32,000 bases of DNA from Methanoculleus sp. (GTDB lineage: Archaea > Halobacteriota > Methanomicrobia > Methanomicrobiales > Methanoculleaceae): contig JASGMC010000010.1 of the NCBI GenBank assembly GCA_030156625.1, forward strand, positions 1-32,000, given 5' to 3'. Below, piece by piece: positions 19,163 through 28,872 of the stretch (position 1 is the stretch's first letter; each line of letters starts with the position of its first letter). Made by a program: the position numbers and the translations under genes. The notes beneath the pieces were generated by a model that saw only the letters and a program-made list of their open reading frames with translations, was not told the DNA's origin and did no database searches.

Positions 19163-19645
19163 ATGGATACCAAACACAGCGTTCTGGAGAAATACTTCGG
19201 GTATACGTCATTCCTCCCCCACCAGGAAGAGATCATCGATTCCGTGCTCGCGGGGACGGACGTCCTCGCCGTCATGGCGACCGGGGGCGGCAAGTCCCTC
19301 TGCTACCAGCTCCCGGCCCTCGTCTTCGGCGGGCTTACGGTCGTCGTCTCGCCGCTCATCGCCCTGATGAAGGACCAGGTCGACGGCTTGCGGGCAAACG
19401 GCATTCCGGCGGCGACGATCAACAGTTCGCTCGGGCAGGGGGAGCGGAGGATCATCGAGCGGGTGATCCTCGAAGGCCGCATCCGGGTCCTCTACGTCTC
19501 GCCGGAACGGGCCGTGCAGCCGTTCTTCCTCTCGCTCCTTGCACAGGCGGATGTCCGGCTCATTGCCATCGACGAGGCGCACTGTATCTCCATGTGGGGG
19601 CACAAGGCACAGCCAACTGTGCTATCTCACATCGATCCGTTATAA
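19163..19645 (+). pseudogene. recQ: recQ 5' fragment (helicase motifs I to II), truncated by an insertion after codon WGH
   Basis: FLPHQEEII, Walker A MATGGGKSLCYQLPAL, motif Ia VVVSPLIALMKDQV and motif II DEAHCISMWGH. RecQ similarity ends at 19605; 13 unrelated codons then run to a stop. Confidence 0.9.
19594..19605. repeat. Left copy of the 12-bp direct repeat GTGGGGGCACAA at the recQ/insert junction
   Basis: Exact 12-mer, identical to 28505-28516. Confidence 0.9.
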
Positions 19646-20397: not shown

Positions 20398-20482
20398 GAC
20401 AGCCCGCAGGCAAAGCACGTTGGCTCTCTTCATGCTTAAGGATGTCCTTGTTTTTGCCTCCGGTTCGAAGGGAGATTACCAA

Positions 20483-23400
20483 ATGAGCACGAAACGTATG
20501 GAGAGAGTCTTTCCTCTTCTCATGACGGTGCTGATGATAGCCACGGCGTTCATTCCTGCCGTGAGCGCCGCAGAACCGAATACATCGAATGTGGATACCA
20601 CGTCCTGGATAAATACCTCCGCGGAGATTGAGAGTGCCGGAGAACCCGGTGCGGATACCTCACCGGCGACAGACAGCACCCGCGTGGTCACCGGTTCCGG
20701 CAAGATCCGGCTCAAAACCTACGACCCGGAGACCAGGACCATCCGGATCACGGATGAGGGCAGATCCGCCGCCGATGGAGACCTTGAGATCCGGCTGGTG
20801 AACACCACACCGGATCTCGGCACCTTCACCGAGATCTTCGAGATCACCGCGCACAGCACGATCGCCCTCGACGAATCAGAGGACTTCCGGGCCACATGGG
20901 CGCTCCACAACGGGGAGGAAAACGTCACCCGGGCCGAGTGGTTCGTCTGGGAGAACCGGTTGCATACCGTCAAGATCCCGATCATTGAGTACCGGAACGT
21001 CACCCTTGAGATTAATACATCTGAAAATCGTACTTTTGAGAATGTTACCCGTGGAGAAACTCTTCCTGAAACCGCCACGGTCCGGGAACCTTATATCGCC
21101 GGCACCGAGACCCGGGAGCGGTACTGGTATGAGTGGGTGCCGTTTGACCCGGCGGGGCAGACGCTCAACGCCGAAGAGGCGCGGACCTTCAAGGTCGTCT
21201 ACACCAAGCCCGCCGAGATCGGGCAGGTCGATATCAACACCGCCCCGGTCTTCCGGGGCGTCGCGTGCCCGGAGATGACCTGGTGGAGCACTGCCTGGAC
21301 CGCGCGGGTGCCGATCACAATCATCAACCCGCCAGCGGTCGATAACTACTCTCACTGTGAGGTCGTCTCGTTCCTTCCCGGCATGCAGAGCGACTTCGAT
21401 GACGTCCGGTTCGCGACCGACGACGGCACCGTTCTCGACTACTGGAAGGAGTCCTATACTGCATCCGACTCGGCCGTCATCTGGGTCAATCTCCCCGCCG
21501 GTGTGACCTTGATCTGGATGTACTACGGGAATGCGGCAGCCACCGATACCGGCAGCAGAGATAACGCTTACATCCTCTACGACGACTTCAACGGCCCGGA
21601 TCTCGATACGACGATCTGGACGGACACACATCCCGACGGCCATTACATCTCCAATGGTTGGATATACGATGTCCGAACTCAGGAAACCGGCATTCGTGGC
21701 GTTCTGGTATCCAATGATAATGTGATCGCCAACGGCGAGCCGGTGATCGTAGAGATGCATATCCACGCCGATGGCCTCGCCAGTCCCGGCTACTGCTCCG
21801 GGTATCTTCCTATCTTTATTGACCACATCGACCACGACTCCGCGATCCGGAACGGTCTGCTCTGGTACAAGCAATCGTCAAACTGGTGCCGGTACGTCCT
21901 TGTGAACGGTGTTGCATCATGGCGGCCGGGAGCATCGCGTGGCCTCGCGGTTGGCGGCGACTACTACAACACCTGGATCATCACACCGTCCAGTCAGACC
22001 CATACTGTCAGTGGGAGCGCCTCCTACACCGATGTATTTGCTGGCACGACCGGAATCTCAAACCATCGGATGGTCATTCTGGGCGGCGATAACTCGGTTT
22101 CCGGCCGAGTCATGCGGATGGACTGGATCCGGGCGCGGAAGTACGTCGAAACCGAACCGACATTCGCCTACGGTACACCGGAGTTCGAACCGCCAGTGGC
22201 GAACTTCACGGCCTCGCCAATCACAGGCGCCGCCCCGCTCACCGTCCAGTTCACCGACACATCGACCGGCAGCCCGACCTCCTGGGCGTGGGACTTCACA
22301 AACGACGGATCATGGGACAGTTATGCGCAGAATCCGTCCTACACCTACAACAACCCCGGCACGTACTCGGTCAAACTCAGGGCCACGAACGCCGACGGGG
22401 ACGATGAGGAGGTCAAGACCGATGTCATCACGGTGACTGCACCGATCTACTATGTCTATGCTGAAGCGGGAGATAGTGGAACATCAGTATACAACATGGC
22501 AAAAGGATTCTGGGAGACGATCAAAGACGCCCAAAGCGGATGGACCACGTGGAGAGACTGGCGTAACGAAGATGACATTATTAAAAGCGATTCCTCTCGG
22601 GAAGGCCACTGGAGGAAAACAGCGGCAAATCCTCCAGGCCATGCGGATCAATGGGTCGAAAGAGCGGATTTTGCATACTTTACGGGTCATGGGTTTCCCA
22701 ATGGTTTCCTTTTTGAGGAGCCAGATGAAGATTCCAATTTAACCGAAGCACACGCGCAAAACATATCGCTGGGGTCCGGGCGCACCAAATGGGTTGTACT
22801 TGATTCATGCTCAAGTCTCAATGAAAGCAGCCAGACAAACTGGCATGCGTCCTTTAATGGACTGCGGATGCTGCTGGGCTGGGATTCGCCAACAACTCCG
22901 ACGAATATACCTATCGGTCGCGGAGAGATGTTTGCAAAACTAATGATGGGGCAATATCCAGATCCTACCGCTTCCGAACTCTCAATATTCGAAGCTTGGA
23001 CATGGGCAGCAGTGTATACGTGGGAAGGTTACTCCCCTGGAGAGGACATATATACTGCGATCATATACGACACAAATTGCTTGAATGATATGCTCCCCGG
23101 ATGGGGCGGGTATTCAACCTCTCCAAGCGGTTTCCTCGAATATAACAAGACACTTGTAAAAAATGTGAATGAGGGAAAAGATGTTGAAAAATCGACTATG
23201 CTGGATTCAACTAATGGCAGATATTCGATACATACTTCTGTGCCCACTACATCAGGTAAACTCATGACGTATATATCTGAAAAACCAGAGTATACGGAGG
23301 AGTGGGTAAGTTCGCTGGCAAGGAACCTCGGAATGTCCGGGAAGAAAAGAGAATCGGAAAAGGCATATTACGCTGATGAAACCGAAGAAGATGAGTTCTA

Positions 23401-23998
23401 TTTCGTCGTGCAAAAGGATGCCAAAATCATTGCATTTAAAAAATATCATCAGCAATCGGGAGAACCCCTTTCAGCCGAAACAGCGACTGAATCAGTACAT
23501 GAGTTCTTGGAAAATGCCGGCCTCATGTTCCCCGATGCAACAGACGCCAATATCGGCTATAATACCGGTGAAAGTATTTCTCCTTCGGGAGAACGTGTCC
23601 AAACTTGGAAACAGATCGTAGTAACTTTCCCCCGCGAACTGAACGGCCTGAGGGTATGGGATTCACAAATCCTTGCCGATGTGGATCCACAAGGTAATGT
23701 CGTCAGATTATTTATCAGCTGGCCGGATTATAAGCCACATAAAGAGGTGTCACTGAAGACACCTGAACAAGCCTTTGAAGAGTTCCAGAAGGAATTCGCC
23801 AGCATTCATGGGGAAAAAGCGGAAAAAGTTATCGTAACCGATGTTTCGCTCGGGTATTCCTCATTGCCGATCTCTGGAACACAACGGTGCCTTCAGCCGA
23901 CATACGTCTTCGAGGGGTCCGTTCAACGGGGAAGTTTGACCGATGAGTTCGAACCTATCATTATTGAAGCAAGCGGTGAAGGGGTTGATATTGCATGA
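20483..23998 (+). CDS. Large secreted mosaic surface protein: signal peptide, unknown N-domain, DUF2341, ConA/LamG-like, PKD, domain A (putative Cys-peptidase-like), module B
   Basis: GGAG lies 8 nt upstream of ATG 20483. Signal peptide: MSTKRMERVFPLLMTVLMIATAFIPAVSA. DUF2341-like: WWSTAWTARVPITI...FDDVRFATDDGTVLDYW...VIWVNLP...MYYGN. PKD: APLTVQFTDTSTGSPTSWAWDF...YTYNNPGTYSVKLRATN. Domain A: FTGHG (His codon 22688-22690) and VVLDSCSSLNES (Cys codon 22808-22810). The C-terminal ~260 aa are paralogous to the next gene. Confidence 0.85.
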   Translation: MSTKRMERVFPLLMTVLMIATAFIPAVSAAEPNTSNVDTTSWINTSAEIESAGEPGADTSPATDSTRVVTGSGKIRLKTYDPETRTIRITDEGRSAADGDLEIRLVNTTPDLGTFTEIFEITAHSTIALDESEDFRATWALHNGEENVTRAEWFVWENRLHTVKIPIIEYRNVTLEINTSENRTFENVTRGETLPETATVREPYIAGTETRERYWYEWVPFDPAGQTLNAEEARTFKVVYTKPAEIGQVDINTAPVFRGVACPEMTWWSTAWTARVPITIINPPAVDNYSHCEVVSFLPGMQSDFDDVRFATDDGTVLDYWKESYTASDSAVIWVNLPAGVTLIWMYYGNAAATDTGSRDNAYILYDDFNGPDLDTTIWTDTHPDGHYISNGWIYDVRTQETGIRGVLVSNDNVIANGEPVIVEMHIHADGLASPGYCSGYLPIFIDHIDHDSAIRNGLLWYKQSSNWCRYVLVNGVASWRPGASRGLAVGGDYYNTWIITPSSQTHTVSGSASYTDVFAGTTGISNHRMVILGGDNSVSGRVMRMDWIRARKYVETEPTFAYGTPEFEPPVANFTASPITGAAPLTVQFTDTSTGSPTSWAWDFTNDGSWDSYAQNPSYTYNNPGTYSVKLRATNADGDDEEVKTDVITVTAPIYYVYAEAGDSGTSVYNMAKGFWETIKDAQSGWTTWRDWRNEDDIIKSDSSREGHWRKTAANPPGHADQWVERADFAYFTGHGFPNGFLFEEPDEDSNLTEAHAQNISLGSGRTKWVVLDSCSSLNESSQTNWHASFNGLRMLLGWDSPTTPTNIPIGRGEMFAKLMMGQYPDPTASELSIFEAWTWAAVYTWEGYSPGEDIYTAIIYDTNCLNDMLPGWGGYSTSPSGFLEYNKTLVKNVNEGKDVEKSTMLDSTNGRYSIHTSVPTTSGKLMTYISEKPEYTEEWVSSLARNLGMSGKKRESEKAYYADETEEDEFYFVVQKDAKIIAFKKYHQQSGEPLSAETATESVHEFLENAGLMFPDATDANIGYNTGESISPSGERVQTWKQIVVTFPRELNGLRVWDSQILADVDPQGNVVRLFISWPDYKPHKEVSLKTPEQAFEEFQKEFASIHGEKAEKVIVTDVSLGYSSLPISGTQRCLQPTYVFEGSVQRGSLTDEFEPIIIEASGEGVDIA

Positions 23999-25047
23999 CC
24001 GGAAAAGATGAGAACTGTCGGAAGATGAGAGCACCTGTGGTAAAAGGTTCGATATCAACATTTTTTGTCCTCTGTCTTCTGCTTACCACCTTTATCGTTT
24101 CAGCAGGATGCACATCGCAGACCTCATCGGCAGTCCCTTTGCCGGACGTCACGCCTCACGATAATTCCCAAGAATACAGAGATCTCAATCCAGAGGAGAA
24201 TAACACCCTGGAGAACAGCAGCTCGCACGATCCGCGGTTTTTTAACGCAAGAGAGGGCATGTATTCGATAAATGCTTCGTTCCCCGATGTTTCCAAGAAA
24301 ATCATGGTGTACACCCCCGAAAAACCGGAGTATACAAAGGAATGGGTGAGTTCGCTGGCAAAGAAATTCGGAATGTCCGGGAAGGTAAGGGAGTCGGAAA
24401 AAGCATATTACGCCGATGAAGCCGAAACAGATGACTATTATTTCGTTGTGCTGAAGGATGATCGAAGTATCAGCTTTAAAAGTTATCATCAGCAGTCAGG
24501 AGACCCTCCTTCACCCGAAAACGCAACAAAATCGGTGAAGGAATTCCTGGAAAGCGCCGGCCTCGCGTTCCCCGGTGCAACAGAAGCCGGGATCAACTAT
24601 GATACCGGGGGAAGTATTTCGTCTTCAGGGGAGTATGTCCAGAACTTTAAACAGATCGTAGTAACGTTCAACCGTGAGTTGAACGGCATCAGCGTATTGG
24701 GTTCGAGTATCATGGCCCGTGTAGATGCGCAGGGAAATATTATCGAATTATTTTTCCACTGGCCGGACTACAAGCCTTACAAGGAAGTTTCGCTGAAATC
24801 CCCCGAACAGGCCTTTGCCGAGTACTTGGAGTACCAGAAAGATTCGCTGTATATCACAGGAGCCCCGATGAAGCCGGAGAAAGTAGTGGTAACCAGGGTC
24901 TCACTGTTTTACCGATCAACGGGGAAATATGTCGAACCGATATATGTATTCCAGGGATACGGGCAGCAGGGGGAAGTGACACAGCCCTTCGCCTCGGTGT
25001 ATGTCGTGGCAACGGATGAGGGATTGGAAAGATGGCTTGTGTACTGA
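23995..25047 (+). CDS. Stand-alone module-B lipoprotein (paralog of the C-terminus of the preceding protein)
   Basis: Its start overlaps the upstream stop (ATGA at 23995-23998); ATG 24025 is an alternative. Lipobox FIVSAGC. Residues ~90-350 align with the last ~260 aa of the 1192-aa ORF. Some stretches show high nucleotide identity by eye (24321-24470 vs 23279-23430). Confidence 0.8.
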   Translation: MTGKDENCRKMRAPVVKGSISTFFVLCLLLTTFIVSAGCTSQTSSAVPLPDVTPHDNSQEYRDLNPEENNTLENSSSHDPRFFNAREGMYSINASFPDVSKKIMVYTPEKPEYTKEWVSSLAKKFGMSGKVRESEKAYYADEAETDDYYFVVLKDDRSISFKSYHQQSGDPPSPENATKSVKEFLESAGLAFPGATEAGINYDTGGSISSSGEYVQNFKQIVVTFNRELNGISVLGSSIMARVDAQGNIIELFFHWPDYKPYKEVSLKSPEQAFAEYLEYQKDSLYITGAPMKPEKVVVTRVSLFYRSTGKYVEPIYVFQGYGQQGEVTQPFASVYVVATDEGLERWLVY

Positions 25048-25382
25048 AAGAGCGTTCCGATGAACTCAAAAGAGCACCGGAAAGGGTTGACAAGTTCATT
25101 CGCTACGGGGAACCGATATACTACATGCACAAGATTCCCGTACACGCCGGATACAGAGGCAGTTATCTCCAAGCCAGTTGAAAGAACCGGGTATTCAAGG
25201 GACGAATTCTTTGCTGGCAAGTCCCCGGTACCTGCGGGGGAAAGCGTGCGGATGTACCCATCCGTCACCTTTCCCGATGGCGGTTTTCTTGAGCGCAAAG
25301 CGACGTTCACCACCGTCCTGAGCCGTTCCGTACCGGTACGATATCGGGCTGATCGACTGGACGACCGAGGAGCGGATCCACG

Positions 25383-26840
25383 ATGGAGACAGAACCGACA
25401 GCGAGAACGAGATCAGGACCTGCTGGCACACAGATTCGGCGACACCAGCACCAGCACCAGCACCAGCACCAACACCGCCCGCACCCGACACACATCTACA
25501 GCAGCGCCGGCACCTACACGGTAACGCTGAACGTCAGCGATGCTTGTGGGTACGATATCAGCAGCCAGACCCTTATCACCGTCACCTCGGACCAGACCGT
25601 AATGAATCCGGCCCTCTCCTTTGCATCGCCAGACACCCTGATCCTGCGCGAAGGGAAGAATTTCGTCTCGACGCCCTGCTACCTCACATCCGGACACGAT
25701 ACAGCGGGTACGGTCTTCCCGGACTTCGGTACCGATGTCCGGGGATACAGGTTCGAAAACGGCCGGACGGTAATCCTGACGGCGCAGGATGAAATTCGGT
25801 CGCTTGAAGGATACATAATCTACTCGGACGGGTACCACGAGATTTCCCTTCAGTTCGAAGATCCCCAGGTACATCCGACAGTTACAAAAGACCTCGACGA
25901 AGGCTGGAATCTCGTCGGCTTCTATGGTTTGAGCCAGGAATGTGCACGGGACACGCTCATTTCCCTCAGGAACGTGTGGTCGGAGGCAAAGGGCTGGGAT
26001 GCCGGGTCGCAGGAATACGAGACCTCCTTTATCAGGGATTCGACCGGCGATACCAGCGACCAGCGCCTGATGTTTCCGGGGAAGGCTTACCTGGTGTACA
26101 TGACGGAAGAGGGAACTCTGTTCCGCTCGTACTACCTGACGTATTCCTTCTGCGCCGAATGGGTGGGCGACTATCACGGCATGCAGACTCCTCTCTTCAG
26201 CGCCGAGGAAGAGGCCGAAGGCTTCTACGACACGCTTGAAGGGTCGAGTTCATGGACCGGCCAGTTCATCAACGGCAACGACGCCGCGATGGAACGGCAC
26301 TGGAAGGACCCGGCCTTCGGCGGGATTGATTCGAACCACATCGACAACGCACACCTGGCCTTCTTCGTAGGCCACGGGTGGGAGGGCGGGTTCGTCTTCG
26401 GGACCGCCGCCGACGATTACGAGCTGAACTACAGCGAGGCGCGCTGGGGCAACACGAAGACCGACTGGATTATTCTCGGATCGTGCAGCACCCTGAATGA
26501 ATCCACGCGGGAGCACTTGGAGGATGCCTTCGAGGGGCTCCATTCCATATGCGGCTTCGATACCATCGGAGGCACTCACCCGGATATGGGGTGGTATTTC
26601 GCCCAGCAACTGATGGATGGTGAAACCATCTGGGACGCATGGTCTGCGGCGACAGATCAGTACGTGTTCCCGAACGATGGCAGTCTACGGTCAGCGGTTC
26701 TCGCCGCGGACATTGACGGTGACTTGAGCACGCATGATTGTCTTGATGACCATATTTACGGTTACGGATCGTCGATTAATCCGCCCGGTGATCCACCGGC
26801 ATTTCAATACGTGACAAAGCCATGTATACGGGAGATTTAA
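25383..26840 (+). CDS. Second domain-A protein (PKD C-terminal half, unknown beta-rich region, domain A); probably 5'-degraded, with no signal peptide in frame
   Basis: HIYSSAGTYTVTLNVSD is the end of a PKD domain. Domain A: FFVGHG (His codon 26373-26375) and WIILGSCSTLNES (Cys codon 26484-26486). The matching PKD segment FGDTSTS lies upstream in a different frame. Confidence 0.6.
   Translation: METEPTARTRSGPAGTQIRRHQHQHQHQHQHRPHPTHIYSSAGTYTVTLNVSDACGYDISSQTLITVTSDQTVMNPALSFASPDTLILREGKNFVSTPCYLTSGHDTAGTVFPDFGTDVRGYRFENGRTVILTAQDEIRSLEGYIIYSDGYHEISLQFEDPQVHPTVTKDLDEGWNLVGFYGLSQECARDTLISLRNVWSEAKGWDAGSQEYETSFIRDSTGDTSDQRLMFPGKAYLVYMTEEGTLFRSYYLTYSFCAEWVGDYHGMQTPLFSAEEEAEGFYDTLEGSSSWTGQFINGNDAAMERHWKDPAFGGIDSNHIDNAHLAFFVGHGWEGGFVFGTAADDYELNYSEARWGNTKTDWIILGSCSTLNESTREHLEDAFEGLHSICGFDTIGGTHPDMGWYFAQQLMDGETIWDAWSAATDQYVFPNDGSLRSAVLAADIDGDLSTHDCLDDHIYGYGSSINPPGDPPAFQYVTKPCIREI
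25443..25476. repeat. Hexanucleotide microsatellite (CACCAG)4-CACCAA-CACC
   Basis: Read directly. It encodes HQHQ.., TSTS.. or PAPA.. depending on frame. Confidence 0.9.
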
Positions 26841-27791
26841 ATGACAACAAAACAAGTTGTAATCGGAATTGCTGCCCTCTTGCTAATTATTGCCGGGACA
26901 GCACTGGTGCCAGCGGTGTCTCCGCAGGATGATGAAGGTTCAAACAGGGGAATCGAGATCGTCGGACCATACGGCGTGCAAAGTGTCTCTGAGATCGCTC
27001 TCGGTACCGCCCTCACGCGGTACCCCGAACAGGCAATGGTCTACAGGACGGTCGATACCATCGTATCGAAGGACGACGCGCTGAAGATAGCGGAGAAATT
27101 TGGAGTGATCGGACCACTTGAGGAAGATACACTGTCGTATTACATCAAAGACGATCCCTATACGTTTGATATTGAGAAGGAAGGCGGTTGTCTATCCTAT
27201 ACATGGGAAGGGCGGTGGAACGAAGGCGAAGGATACCGGGATTTCCCAGAACACCTCCCGACCGACGAGGAGTGCCGGAAGATCGCCGAAACGTTCCTCG
27301 CCTCTCAATGCTCTCATACCCGAGGGAGCTGTGTATTCTGGTGTTGCACATGGGAAGGGGATTTTTTCGAACCGCTCGGGAGGGACACCCATCGTCACGT
27401 ACGAAGATCGTGACGTCCTCTTCTCCGACACCCTGAGCGGCCTTCCCGTGGCCGGAAGCGGGATCCGGGTCACCATCGGCGGGGGCGGTGACATCCTTGA
27501 GGTCACCAAACGCTGGCGCGACGCCGAACCTTACAAGGAGTTCTCTATCCTCTCCCCAGAGGAAGCGGTTGAGGAGCTCAAACAGACCGGGGTCGTCACC
27601 GCGGTGAGTTCACCGAAGAAGGCGGTCGTCGACGAGGCCAAGCTCTGCTACTATGCAACCCCGCCGGCACCGAGCAGCCGTACCTCAAACCGACCTACTA
27701 CTTCCGCGGCACCGTAGAGGGAGAAAAGGAGGCCGGGACCTTCTACCAGTACGTTCCGGCGGTCCCGGAACTCGGGAAGGGGTTGTACTGA
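26841..27791 (+). pseudogene. Third module-B gene with an N-terminal TM anchor, interrupted by two opposite frameshifts
   Basis: TAAATG junction with the upstream gene, and GGAGA 6 nt upstream. Module-B similarity runs in frame 0 to ~27305, frame +1 to ~27670 (LNALIPEGAVY...ILEVTKRWRDAEPYKEFSILSPEEAVEEL), then frame 0 again (EQPYLKPTYYFRGT... stop 27789-27791). Confidence 0.7.
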
Positions 27792-27819: not shown

Positions 27820-28011
27820 ATGCCCATGATGAACCAGATCGCAACCGGACTCGTCATTCTCGTGCTGCTCGTTGCCGGGACGGCACTGATACCGGTGGAA
27901 TATCCGCCGGACGATGAAGGCACAAGCGGGGGAATAGTGCTGTCGAAGACAAAAATCGGGATAATCCTGGTGGTCGCCATTGCGCTCTCTGCAACCATCT
28001 TCATGGAGTGA
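27820..28011 (+). CDS. Small two-TM protein, or N-terminal relic of a fourth module-B gene
   Basis: AGTALIPVEYPPDDEGTSGGIV parallels AGTALVPAVSPQDDEGSNRGIEIV at the N-terminus of the 26841 gene. Only 63 aa. Confidence 0.4.
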   Translation: MPMMNQIATGLVILVLLVAGTALIPVEYPPDDEGTSGGIVLSKTKIGIILVVAIALSATIFME

Positions 28012-28319
28012 GAGAGTTCAAGGATTTCTTCACGCGTCAGCGACATTTTCCTTGAATAACAAATATTTGCTCATTATATGTAGATCTATTCTTAATCTGC
28101 TCTCTAATTCTTGATTAAGGAACAATTGATACCCAGGTTAAAAAATTATGCCATAGTTGAACAGTTACCATCGGTTATCATAAGCGGGTCAGATATTTAT
28201 CAGAATGGGTCGACAGGACAGCATCTGGTCGTTATCAGTTACTATGATGCAGATTTTCCCATGGTTATCGCAGATACTTATGTGTAACTCCCATTTAGTT
28301 CGCGATATGATTGACGATG

Positions 28320-28504
28320 GAGAACGAGATAATTCGCGCCGGTTCAATGTTCACCGACACCTCCGATGCCTCGCCAACGAAATGTTACTGGACTTCGGTG
28401 ACGGTACGAACTCGACCATGCAGAACACAACGCATACTTACGAATCGCCCGGTAGTTACAACGTCACGTCCCGTACGTGGAACGACCACGGGAGCGATAC
28501 GGTG
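28320..28504 (+). pseudogene. PKD-domain remnant with a 1-nt frameshift, cut off by the right insert junction
   Basis: Frame 0 reads MFTDTSDASPTKCYW, then frame +2 reads DFGDGTNSTMQNTTHTYESPGSYNVTSRTWNDHGSDTVVG. tactggacttcggtgacggt lacks one G relative to tac tgg gac ttc ggt gac ggt. Confidence 0.7.
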
Positions 28505-28872
28505 GTGGGGGCACAACTTCCGGCCGGAGCCGGGCGGTGCTCGCGGGCAATCTTGTGGTGCCGCTCACCGAGCCGCGTCCGGAGGGCATCGTCGCGCCGG
28601 AGACCGGGGAGGACTACGACGAGGCGCTCTTCCTCCGGCTCCGCCGCCTCCGGAAGGTCGTTGCCGACCTCGATCGCGTGCCGCCGTTCGTCGTCTTCCA
28701 CGACCGGAGCCTCAAGGAGATGGCGAAGATCTACCCGGGCACCGGCGTCGCCCTTCTCCGGGTCTACGGGGTCAGCGAGGCGAAGCTGAAGCGTTATGGC
28801 AGGAGGTTCCTCGACGCCATCGATAAGCATTGCGCCGAACAGGGGATCGGACCGGAGCAACGGAGCGGGTGA
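28505..28872 (+). pseudogene. recQ: recQ 3' remnant: right 12-bp repeat plus WGHNFRPE (motif II continuation), then an internal deletion joining out of frame to the C-terminal/HRDC region
   Basis: 28506-28529 reads W G H N F R P E. From ~28534, in the +1 frame: AVLAGNLVVPLTE...YDEALFLRLRRLRKVVADLDRVPPFVVFHDRSLKEMAKIYP...VYGVSEAKLKRYGRRFLDAI, which is an HRDC domain. Confidence 0.85.

What the first reader, a model, noticed from the sequence alone, without database searches (positions are those of the whole stretch)
22450..26840. Conserved domain A with a GHG ... S-C-S-x-L-N-E-S pattern: candidate novel clan-CD-like cysteine peptidase domain in two island proteins
Two otherwise different proteins share a ~200-aa domain. 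The first reads HWRK...ADFAYFTGHGFPNGFLF...(40 aa His to Cys)...TKWVVLDSCSSLNESS...FNGLRMLLGWD. The second reads HWKD...AHLAFFVGHGWEGGFVF...(37 aa)...TDWIILGSCSTLNEST...FEGLHSICGFD. A hydrophobic strand ending in His-Gly is followed ~40 residues later by a hydrophobic strand ending in Cys. That is the catalytic-dyad topology of caspase-fold (clan CD) peptidases; legumain, gingipain and caspases have comparable His-Cys spacings. I do not recognise this as any named family. Both copies sit in secreted or PKD-bearing contexts.
Basis: inference. Interest (0 to 1): 0.85.

Follow-up and report, generated by a model that had tools for sequence, protein, structure and literature searches.

The report
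Caspase-fold domain with PepSY-like partner
Two surface proteins of a methane-producing archaeon share a domain of unknown function (Pfam DUF6345) that is predicted to fold like a caspase and keeps the caspase-type His and Cys; it is regularly fused or adjacent to a second, propeptide-like module that probably controls it.

Summary
The domain does have a name: Pfam DUF6345 (PF19872), uncharacterised.

- An AlphaFold2 model (pLDDT 93.9) has only caspase-fold peptidases among its 50 best PDB matches (SAVED-CHAT, caspases, CED-3, Dronc, C11).
- His and Cys are each kept in 151 of 152 diverse homologues.
- One homologue reaches the Pfam Peptidase_C14 cut-off.

The new point is a partner. DUF6345 comes with a ~270-aa module I call X. 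In the window X is the C-terminus of ORF1, all of ORF2, and the frameshifted ORF4. X is fused in 49 of 150 family representatives and encoded next door in 7 of 7 sampled stand-alone loci, in archaea and bacteria. X is predicted to be a run of PepSY/FTP-like domains, as in YpeB, YycI and metalloprotease propeptides.

Best reading: a new clan-CD-like cysteine peptidase family held in check by a PepSY-type chaperone-inhibitor, acting in cis or in trans. Activity and the role of X are untested.

The parts
20483..23998 (+). ORF1: secreted multidomain protein. Order: signal peptide, unknown N-terminal region, DUF2341, PKD, DUF6345, X module.
   Evidence: ORF list. The mechanical start is TTG 20420. 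ATG 20483 opens MSTKRMERVFPLLMTVLMIATAFIPAVSAAE, a Sec-type signal (read from sequence). Pfam domains.
21392..22435 (+). DUF2341 (ORF1 aa 325-401), an intervening region, and a PKD domain (aa 591-672)
   Evidence: Pfam DUF2341 E 8e-17; PKD_4 E 2.3e-14
22445..23173 (+). DUF6345 caspase-fold domain of ORF1 (about aa 676-918)
   Evidence: Pfam PF19872 E 3e-22; profile match covering aa 679-918; aligned with ORF3 at E 2e-16
22688..22690 (+). Codon of the candidate catalytic His757 (motif FTGHG) of ORF1
   Evidence: Position counted. The column holds His in 151 of 152 homologues.
22808..22810 (+). Codon of the candidate catalytic Cys797 (motif LDSC) of ORF1
   Evidence: Position counted. The column holds Cys in 151 of 152 homologues.
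23180..23995 (+). X module fused to the C-terminus of ORF1 (aa ~921-1192): tandem PepSY/FTP-like domains
   Evidence: 56% identical to ORF2 (E 4e-105). X profile E 1.5e-89. AF2 model shows three helix-plus-sheet units. Foldseek matches 5coz, YycI, YycH, YpeB and M36/M4 propeptide chains.
23995..25047 (+). ORF2: stand-alone X protein (350 aa) with a hydrophobic N-terminus and a lipobox-like VSAGC
   Evidence: It is 100% identical to a Methanoculleus sp. MAG protein (P0161). No Pfam family passes. Sub-threshold DUF4901 in 9 of 18 and FTP in 7 of 18 X-family members. The lipobox is read from the sequence (inference).
25383..26840 (+). ORF3: PKD remnant, an unknown middle region with GWN motifs, and DUF6345. 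No signal peptide; the N-terminus is probably truncated.
   Evidence: Pfam PKD covers only profile positions 44-70 of 80, at aa 30-56. Three-frame view.
26142..26834 (+). DUF6345 caspase-fold domain of ORF3 (aa 254-484)
   Evidence: Pfam PF19872 E 5e-47. AF2 pLDDT 93.9. The Foldseek top 50 are all clan CD.
26373..26375 (+). Codon of the candidate catalytic His331 (motif FVGHG) of ORF3
   Evidence: In the model it lies two residues after strand 86-90.
26484..26486 (+). Codon of the candidate catalytic Cys368 (motif LGSC) of ORF3
   Evidence: In the model it lies two residues after strand 123-127.
26841..27791 (+). ORF4: X-family gene starting directly after the ORF3 stop. Its middle segment (about 27307-27660) is out of frame, so it is a pseudogene or an assembly error.
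   Evidence: tblastn with the four Methanofollis X proteins gives three pieces in frames a/b/a, 54-71% identical. The C-terminus YVPAVPELGKGLY* is in the first frame.
27820..28011 (+). Remnant of a further X copy (63 aa; only the N-terminal membrane anchor is recognisable)
   Evidence: MPMMNQIATGLVILVLLVAGTALIPVEYPPDDEG resembles the N-termini of the Methanofollis X proteins

Best explanation
The shared domain is Pfam DUF6345, an uncharacterised family with a caspase-hemoglobinase (clan-CD-like) fold. It most likely works as a cysteine peptidase. The His of the G-H-G motif and the Cys of the (A/S)-C motif each sit at the C-terminal end of a hydrophobic beta-strand and would form the catalytic dyad; the Gly after the His would contribute to the oxyanion hole, as in caspases. 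The domain does not act alone. It is regularly coupled to a ~270-residue partner module (X) built of tandem PepSY/FTP-like domains, either fused N- or C-terminally or encoded by the next gene. By analogy with M4/M36 protease propeptides and with YpeB-SleB, X most likely binds the peptidase as a chaperone and inhibitor, like a prodomain in cis or in trans, until it is cleaved or released. In this Methanoculleus island the system is extracellular. ORF1 is a secreted protein made of adhesin-like domains, the peptidase and X. ORF2 is a membrane-tethered X. ORF3 to ORF5 are a second, decaying copy of the module. Shown computationally: homology, predicted fold, His/Cys conservation, and the pairing with X. 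Inferred: peptidase activity, the role of X, and the location.
For: Family: Pfam DUF6345 E 3e-22 and 5e-47; 1457 representative proteins at E<=1e-3.
Fold: AF2 pLDDT 93.9. The Foldseek PDB top 50 are all clan-CD peptidases; the best is the CHAT protease of 8tl0 at E 1e-8, followed by caspases, CED-3, Dronc and C11.
Dyad: His 151/152 and Cys 151/152; the consensus is FxGHG ... WIxLDAC. hhalign puts them on His121 and Cys163 of caspase-3.
Sequence bridge: Peptidase_C14 matches 6 of 38 members; P0032 scores 22.3 bits against a cut-off of 21.4, over residues 9-117, which include both motifs.
Partner fused: an X profile finds X in 49 of 150 family representatives, 35 N-terminal and 14 C-terminal to DUF6345.
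Partner adjacent: an X gene lies next to the DUF6345 gene in 7 of 7 sampled stand-alone loci. These are Methanofollis aquaemaris (four tandem copies), an Archaeoglobus veneficus-type contig, and five metagenome contigs including bacterial-type cytoplasmic pairs. The link also holds when starting from an X protein.
X fold: AF2 pLDDT 82.9. Foldseek matches 5coz, YycI 2o3o, YycH, YpeB C-terminal PepSY domains 5boi, chain B of fungalysin 4k90 and chain A of vibriolysin MCP-02 3nqz. Sub-threshold Pfam DUF4901 in 9/18 and FTP in 7/18.
Precedent: the PepSY domains of YpeB are proposed chaperone-inhibitors of the operon partner SleB (bioRxiv 10.64898/2026.06.01.729290).
Against: There are no experimental data for any DUF6345 protein. 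The only paper mentioning the family is a proteome table.
Structural similarity is moderate: TM 0.35-0.50, rmsd 4-8 A. The models are predictions and I could not inspect coordinates to measure the His-Cys distance.
The window proteins themselves match no clan-CD Pfam family. Profile searches of PDB sequences found nothing. The hhalign probability is only 1.4%.
The role of X rests on analogy. Four near-identical tandem X genes behind one peptidase gene in Methanofollis are not what a simple 1:1 inhibitor predicts.
PepSY-like domains also occur in non-inhibitory regulators (YycH/YycI).
ORF3 and ORF4 look degenerate, so only ORF1 and ORF2 may be functional here.
Confidence: 0.6

Rival explanations
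1. The domain is an active caspase-fold enzyme, but X is its substrate or cargo rather than its inhibitor. DUF6345 would process, mature or transpeptidate X-family surface proteins, as legumain or GPI8-type clan-CD enzymes do, or as bacterial caspase-like proteases cleave the neighbouring gasdermin.
For: One peptidase gene is followed by four tandem X genes in Methanofollis, and there are several X copies in the window. X proteins carry membrane anchors or a lipobox-like motif and a conserved C-terminal PAxPELG motif. Clan CD includes transamidases (established knowledge).
Against: X is covalently fused to the enzyme in a third of the representatives, in both orientations. That is typical of prodomains and regulatory modules. 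The fold of X is that of known chaperone/inhibitor modules. The bacterial pairs lack signal peptides, so surface anchoring cannot be the general role.
Confidence: 0.2
2. The domain is a non-catalytic caspase-fold scaffold (a pseudo-protease) that serves as a binding module in surface proteins.
For: No activity has ever been shown. The domain sits among adhesin-type domains (PKD, DUF2341). Inactive caspase-fold homologues exist, for example Raptor_N (knowledge).
Against: His and Cys are kept in 151 of 152 sequences that are otherwise only 25-45% identical to the window domain, together with the flanking Gly residues. Pseudo-enzymes normally lose such residues.
Confidence: 0.1
3. It is a thiol-dependent hydrolase or transferase acting on a non-peptide substrate, such as a cell-envelope glycan-peptide link or an acyl group, on a caspase-like scaffold.
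For: The X-like partner YpeB regulates a peptidoglycan lytic enzyme, not a protease. The context is extracellular envelope.
Against: To my knowledge (not tested here), characterised His-Cys enzymes of this fold act on peptide bonds, as peptidases or transpeptidases. The nearest sequence and structure matches are peptidases.
Confidence: 0.1

Closest known systems
Clan CD cysteine peptidases: caspases/metacaspases (C14), CHAT proteases, clostripain-like C11
   Same: Predicted alpha/beta caspase-hemoglobinase fold. His precedes Cys in the sequence, each after a hydrophobic strand, within H-G and (A/S)-C motifs. The spacing of 37-40 residues compares with 42 in caspase-3. These are the best structural matches.
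   Different: The window proteins are not detected by any of the Pfam models for those families. There is no long inter-subunit linker after the Cys: about 20 residues separate it from the next strand. There are extra invariant Trp residues and a conserved G-L-H motif. The obligate partner module is different. Substrate specificity is unknown.
Pfam DUF6345 (PF19872)
   Same: Both window domains are members by the curated threshold.
   Different: Nothing differs. The family has no assigned function. The library of papers holds a single mention, a Tannerella forsythia vesicle proteome table. I could not check whether Pfam already lists it in the Peptidase_CD clan.
FTP/PepSY propeptides of M4 (thermolysin/vibriolysin) and M36 (fungalysin) metallopeptidases
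   Same: The X module is predicted to have the same small helix-plus-sheet domains in tandem. It matches chain B of 4k90 and chain A of 3nqz, which to my knowledge are the propeptide chains. It can be fused N-terminally to the catalytic domain.
   Different: The catalytic partner is a caspase-fold Cys enzyme, not a zinc metallopeptidase. X can also be C-terminal or a separate, membrane-anchored protein. X passes no Pfam FTP or PepSY threshold.
YpeB-SleB operon of Bacillus
   Same: An enzyme gene sits in one operon with a protein that has an N-terminal membrane anchor and three PepSY-type domains. YpeB is proposed to be a chaperone-inhibitor akin to protease prodomains. X matches the YpeB C-terminal domain 5boi at E 9.5e-6.
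   Different: SleB is a lytic transglycosylase, not a peptidase. There is no sequence-level homology to X.
YycH/YycI regulators of the WalK kinase
   Same: After the uncharacterised 5coz, these are the best-scoring structural matches of X (2o3o E 3.6e-7; 9a5d_B). They are membrane-anchored and extracellular.
   Different: They regulate a histidine kinase. No kinase gene is associated with the DUF6345-X pairs seen here.

Membership tests
Pfam DUF6345 (PF19872) | Score at or above the curated gathering cut-off (26.9 bits) of the family HMM | tested here: met
   ORF1 79.6 bits, ORF3 160.6 bits; all 38 and all 60 aligned homologues also match
Clan CD (caspase-hemoglobinase fold peptidases) | Caspase-type alpha/beta fold with a central mostly parallel sheet | tested here: met
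   AF2 model pLDDT 93.9. The 50 best Foldseek PDB matches are all clan-CD peptidases, probability ~1.0, TM 0.35-0.50. This rests on a predicted structure, not a solved one.
Clan CD (caspase-hemoglobinase fold peptidases) | Catalytic His (H-G) then Cys ((A/S)-C), each following a block of hydrophobic residues, both conserved | tested here: met
   His 151/152 and Cys 151/152; consensus AYFxGHG and WIxLDAC. The residues follow strands 86-90 and 123-127. hhalign aligns them to caspase-3 His121 and Cys163.
Clan CD (caspase-hemoglobinase fold peptidases) | Demonstrated Cys-dependent peptidase activity with P1-directed specificity | not testable with these tools
Peptidase_C14 (caspase/metacaspase, PF00656) | Score at or above the gathering cut-off (21.4 bits) | tested here: not met
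   The window proteins give no match. Six of 38 relatives match weakly; only P0032 reaches 22.3 bits. The family is related to C14 but is not a member of it.
CHAT, Peptidase_C11, C13, C25 (Pfam) | Match to the family HMM | tested here: not met
   No CHAT, C11 or C13 match at E<=10. C25 matches only 3 of 38 relatives at E>=0.011. The resemblance to CHAT and C11 is structural only.
PepSY / FTP propeptide-type domains (for module X) | Match to Pfam PepSY, FTP or DUF4901 at the curated threshold | tested here: not met
   Only sub-threshold hits: DUF4901 in 9/18 (best E 4.8e-4), FTP in 7/18 (best 2.4e-3), YycI in 2/18; PepSY itself is not listed. FTP does pass E<=1e-3 in 2 of 60 full-length DUF6345 proteins.
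PepSY / FTP propeptide-type domains (for module X) | Tandem small helix-plus-antiparallel-sheet domains resembling solved PepSY/FTP structures | tested here: met
   The AF2 model has helix-sheet units at 281-329, 340-433 and 436-504. Foldseek matches YycI, YycH, YpeB-C, 4k90_B and 3nqz_A at E 4e-7 to 8e-3.
Known anti-phage defence proteases (PADLOC-DB) | Match to any PADLOC model | tested here: not met
   No match for DUF6345 or X proteins from the window, L003 or L004.

The most novel reading that the evidence does not exclude
DUF6345 plus X is a widespread, so far undescribed two-component zymogen system of archaea and bacteria. It would be a new clan-CD cysteine peptidase family whose folding and latency depend on a dedicated PepSY-type chaperone-inhibitor, supplied as an N-terminal or C-terminal prodomain or as a separate, often membrane-anchored protein. 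This would extend the PepSY/FTP propeptide principle from zinc metallopeptidases to caspase-fold enzymes.
Probability: 0.35. Interest if true: 0.75.

Novelty: new variant of a known kind. Interest (0 to 1): 0.6.

Why it matters
Caspase-fold proteases of prokaryotes are attracting attention as switches in immunity and cell death, yet this family has no assigned function. It has about 1,450 cluster representatives across Methanomicrobia, Archaeoglobi, Bathyarchaeota, Chloroflexota, Proteobacteria and Bacteroidota. Recognising it as a His-Cys enzyme gives it a testable activity. The regular pairing with a PepSY-like module gives a concrete regulatory hypothesis and an obvious experiment: co-express the pair and ask whether X stabilises and inhibits the enzyme. 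It would also be the first case I know of in which PepSY/FTP-type modules control a cysteine peptidase. For archaeal biology, it points to a secreted protease on the surface of methanogens. If the reading is wrong, the cost is small: the family stays a DUF with a caspase-like fold.

Tried and rejected
Searches that found nothing:
- Sequence and profile searches of PDB chains with alignments A2 and A3 and with P0032 found nothing relevant. The link to clan CD therefore needs structure or sub-threshold Pfam matches.
- The word-indexed protein search with the ORF1 domain found no homologue. The exhaustive HMMER profile search was needed.
- PADLOC and NCBIfam hold no model for either partner, so I did not pursue a reading as a known defence system.
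- A search of the paper library for PepSY together with 'clan CD' found nothing.

I could not make a systematic survey of genome neighbourhoods, and sampled loci one at a time instead.
It returned only relatives of at most 64% identity, so the island boundaries could not be fixed against an uninterrupted near-identical genome.
- One script produced an empty table because of a closed pipe, and another failed on file names. Both were rerun.

Rejected readings:
- Chance similarity: E 2e-16 between the two ORFs, and both pass the Pfam threshold.
- A pseudo-enzyme scaffold: the dyad is nearly invariant.
Full report
**What is in the sequence.** The region holds a co-oriented run of genes on the + strand.
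- ORF1: 20420-23998, 1192 aa. The likely true start is ATG 20483, which opens a typical signal peptide, MSTKRMERVFPLLMTVLMIATAFIPAVSA|AE.
- ORF2: 23995-25047, 350 aa.
- ORF3: 25383-26840, 485 aa.
- ORF4: directly after the ORF3 stop, in pieces over 26841-27791.

BLASTP of ORF1 against ORF3 aligns residues 694-904 with 278-469 at 30% identity, E 2e-16.

**The domain has a name but no function.** Pfam assigns both copies to DUF6345 (PF19872): ORF1 E 3e-22, ORF3 E 5e-47, cut-off 26.9 bits. ORF1 also carries DUF2341 and a PKD domain. ORF3 begins inside a PKD domain. NCBIfam and PADLOC have no model for it. In the paper library DUF6345 appears once, as a line in a Tannerella forsythia vesicle proteome table.

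The closest relatives are hypothetical proteins of Methanomicrobiales, for example Methanofollis aquaemaris RJ40_00500 at 80% identity. ORF2 is identical to a protein of a Methanoculleus sp. MAG, which identifies the host.

**Size and conservation of the family.** A profile of eight domains was scored against 1.84 billion representative proteins. It found 1457 proteins at E<=1e-3 and 852 at E<=1e-10. I extracted 152 near-full-length domains from the proteins retrieved so far and aligned them to the profile.
- The His of G-H-G is present in 151 and the Cys in 151.
- The flanking Gly residues, two Trp residues (150/152 each) and a G-L-H motif (His in 142, Arg in 9, including ORF1) are also conserved.
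- The consensus around the two residues is AYFxGHG and WIxLDAC. This is the clan-CD signature: His-Gly and Ala-Cys, each after a hydrophobic block (established knowledge of clan CD).

Named members come from Bathyarchaeota, Archaeoglobus veneficus, Chloroflexota and a betaproteobacterium. All are annotated as hypothetical or as DUF6345.

**Fold.** AlphaFold2 on a 38-sequence alignment gives a confident model of the ORF3 domain: pLDDT 93.9, pTM 0.90.
- Helices alternate with strands, with His92 two residues after strand 86-90 and Cys129 two residues after strand 123-127.
- Foldseek against the PDB returns clan-CD peptidases in all 50 top places: the CHAT protease of the SAVED-CHAT filament 8tl0 (E 1e-8, TM 0.5), caspases-1/3/4/7/8/11, CED-3, Dronc and the C11 peptidase 6n9j.
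- TM-scores are moderate (0.35-0.50), so this is a distinct family, not a close relative of any of these.
- hhalign of the family profile against caspase-3 gives only a weak local match (probability 1.4%). That match puts GHG on SHG (His121) and SC on QAC (Cys163).
- The Pfam caspase model Peptidase_C14 matches 6 of 38 family members below threshold. One, P0032, scores 22.3 bits, above the 21.4 cut-off. That match covers residues 9-117, from the first strand through both motifs.

**The partner module (X).**
- *In the window.* The C-terminal 270 residues of ORF1 are 56% identical to ORF2 (E 4e-105; 74% at the DNA level). ORF4 is a third, more distant copy. Its first and last parts are in one frame and its middle (about 27307-27660) is in another. 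A fourth copy is reduced to its membrane anchor (27820-28011).
- *Adjacent genes elsewhere.* In M. aquaemaris the ORF3 orthologue is followed by four tandem X genes. On an Archaeoglobus veneficus-type contig, a 255-aa DUF6345 protein with a signal peptide is followed 14 nt later by a 309-aa X protein with a membrane anchor (E 1e-71). In a bacterial-type metagenome contig, a 226-aa DUF6345 protein and a 294-aa X protein, both without signal peptides, are 11 nt apart. With an iterated X profile, all seven distinct stand-alone DUF6345 loci that I sampled have an X gene next to them. Starting from an X protein also leads back to DUF6345.
- *Fusions.* Among the 150 best family representatives, 49 carry X in the same polypeptide: 35 N-terminal to the catalytic domain (for example the ~690-aa Bathyarchaeota proteins) and 14 C-terminal as in ORF1. 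Another 63 are short, domain-only proteins.

Fusion in both orientations, together with conserved adjacency across archaea and bacteria, is strong evidence for a direct functional link.

**What X is.** X passes no Pfam family. Sub-threshold hits cluster on DUF4901 (the YcdB/YcdC repeat, 9 of 18 members), FTP (the fungalysin/thermolysin propeptide, 7 of 18) and YycI. FTP passes E<=1e-3 in two full-length DUF6345 proteins.

The AF2 model of ORF1 residues 680-1192 (pLDDT 82.9) shows three helix-plus-sheet units. Its Foldseek matches are the uncharacterised 5coz, YycI (2o3o), YycH, the three-PepSY C-terminal domain of YpeB (5boi), chain B of fungalysin 4k90 and chain A of vibriolysin MCP-02 3nqz. 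To my knowledge the last two are the propeptide chains.

X is therefore a tandem PepSY/FTP-like module. Such modules act as intramolecular chaperones and inhibitors in M4/M36 protease precursors (established knowledge). [quoted passage not shown]

**Most likely mechanism.** DUF6345 is a clan-CD-like cysteine peptidase with a His-Cys dyad. X binds it, helps it fold and keeps it latent, either as a prodomain (fused forms) or as a separate, often membrane-tethered protein. Activation would follow cleavage or release of X.

In this archaeon the system is extracellular. ORF1 has a signal peptide and adhesin-type domains. ORF2 has a hydrophobic N-terminus with a lipobox-like VSAGC (read from the sequence; inference).

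My confidence, step by step:
- caspase-type fold: about 0.9
- catalytic peptidase: about 0.65
- X as chaperone-inhibitor: about 0.4

The main rival is that X is the substrate or cargo. The four tandem X genes in Methanofollis fit that better; the frequent fusions fit it worse. A non-catalytic scaffold is unlikely given the near-invariant dyad.

**Comparison with what is known, and novelty.** The domain is a member of Pfam DUF6345. It is not a member of C14, CHAT, C11, C13 or C25 by their models. It works like them as far as fold and dyad go. I could not check whether Pfam already lists PF19872 in the Peptidase_CD clan. If it does, the fold assignment is database knowledge and only the partner finding is new. 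I found no description of a caspase-fold enzyme coupled to PepSY-type modules. I rate it a new variant of a known kind.

**Context.** The genes lie in ~8.9 kb of lower-GC DNA that interrupts recQ. The right half of this island is decaying.

Noticed in passing
window 19163-19645 and 28558-28872: recQ is split. RecQ residues ~11-156 (DEAD domain) and ~520-620 (HRDC) lie 8.9 kb apart on the same strand. The helicase-C/Zn/RQC middle (~1.1 kb) is missing and is replaced by lower-GC DNA (46-58% against 62-68%) that carries the DUF6345/X genes. This looks like an insertion with a deletion, that is, an island.
   Followed up: partly
window 26841-27791: ORF4 (X family) starts at the base after the ORF3 stop, but its middle third (about 27307-27660) is in another frame, so there are two compensating frameshifts. 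It is either a pseudogene or an assembly error in the MAG.
   Followed up: partly
window 27820-28500: More debris lies here. One piece is a 63-aa remnant of a further X copy (27820-28011), with only the membrane anchor recognisable. After an AT-rich stretch comes a PKD-domain remnant spread over two frames (28205-28500), just before the recQ HRDC part.
   Followed up: partly
window 25040-25570: ORF3 has no signal peptide and begins within a PKD domain, right after a (CACCAG)n run (25443-25470) that reads HQHQHQHQHQ. In another frame the same DNA reads as a Thr/Pro/Ala-rich linker. The original N-terminus seems lost by a frameshift or deletion.
   Followed up: partly
L001 9780-10001 (Methanofollis aquaemaris CP036172) and L002: The ORF3 orthologue is preceded, in frame, by an ORF encoding a signal peptide (MKQETALWNSGVVLILLLSTAMLIPAAGAAA...). 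A single TGA (L001 9959) separates the two. The same TGA is present in an independent assembly (L002). It could be a pseudogene, a recoded stop, or a start downstream of the stop; this was not resolved.
   Followed up: partly
window 25600-26140 (ORF3 aa ~74-250); also P0002, P0004, P0008-P0010: Between the PKD remnant and DUF6345, ORF3 and its relatives carry a region that matches no Pfam family. It contains two L-x-x-G-W-N-x-(V/I)-(S/G) motifs, possibly a duplicated beta-rich domain of unknown function.
   Followed up: no
L004 3692-4578 and L005 245-1130: In the bacterial-type contigs, three and two small Phage_T4_gp19 (tail-tube-like) genes lie about 3.4 kb upstream of the DUF6345-X pair on the opposite strand. 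This may be coincidental.
   Followed up: no
window 20483-21390 (ORF1 aa ~22-324): The N-terminal ~300 residues of ORF1, before DUF2341, match no Pfam family and were not examined further.
   Followed up: no
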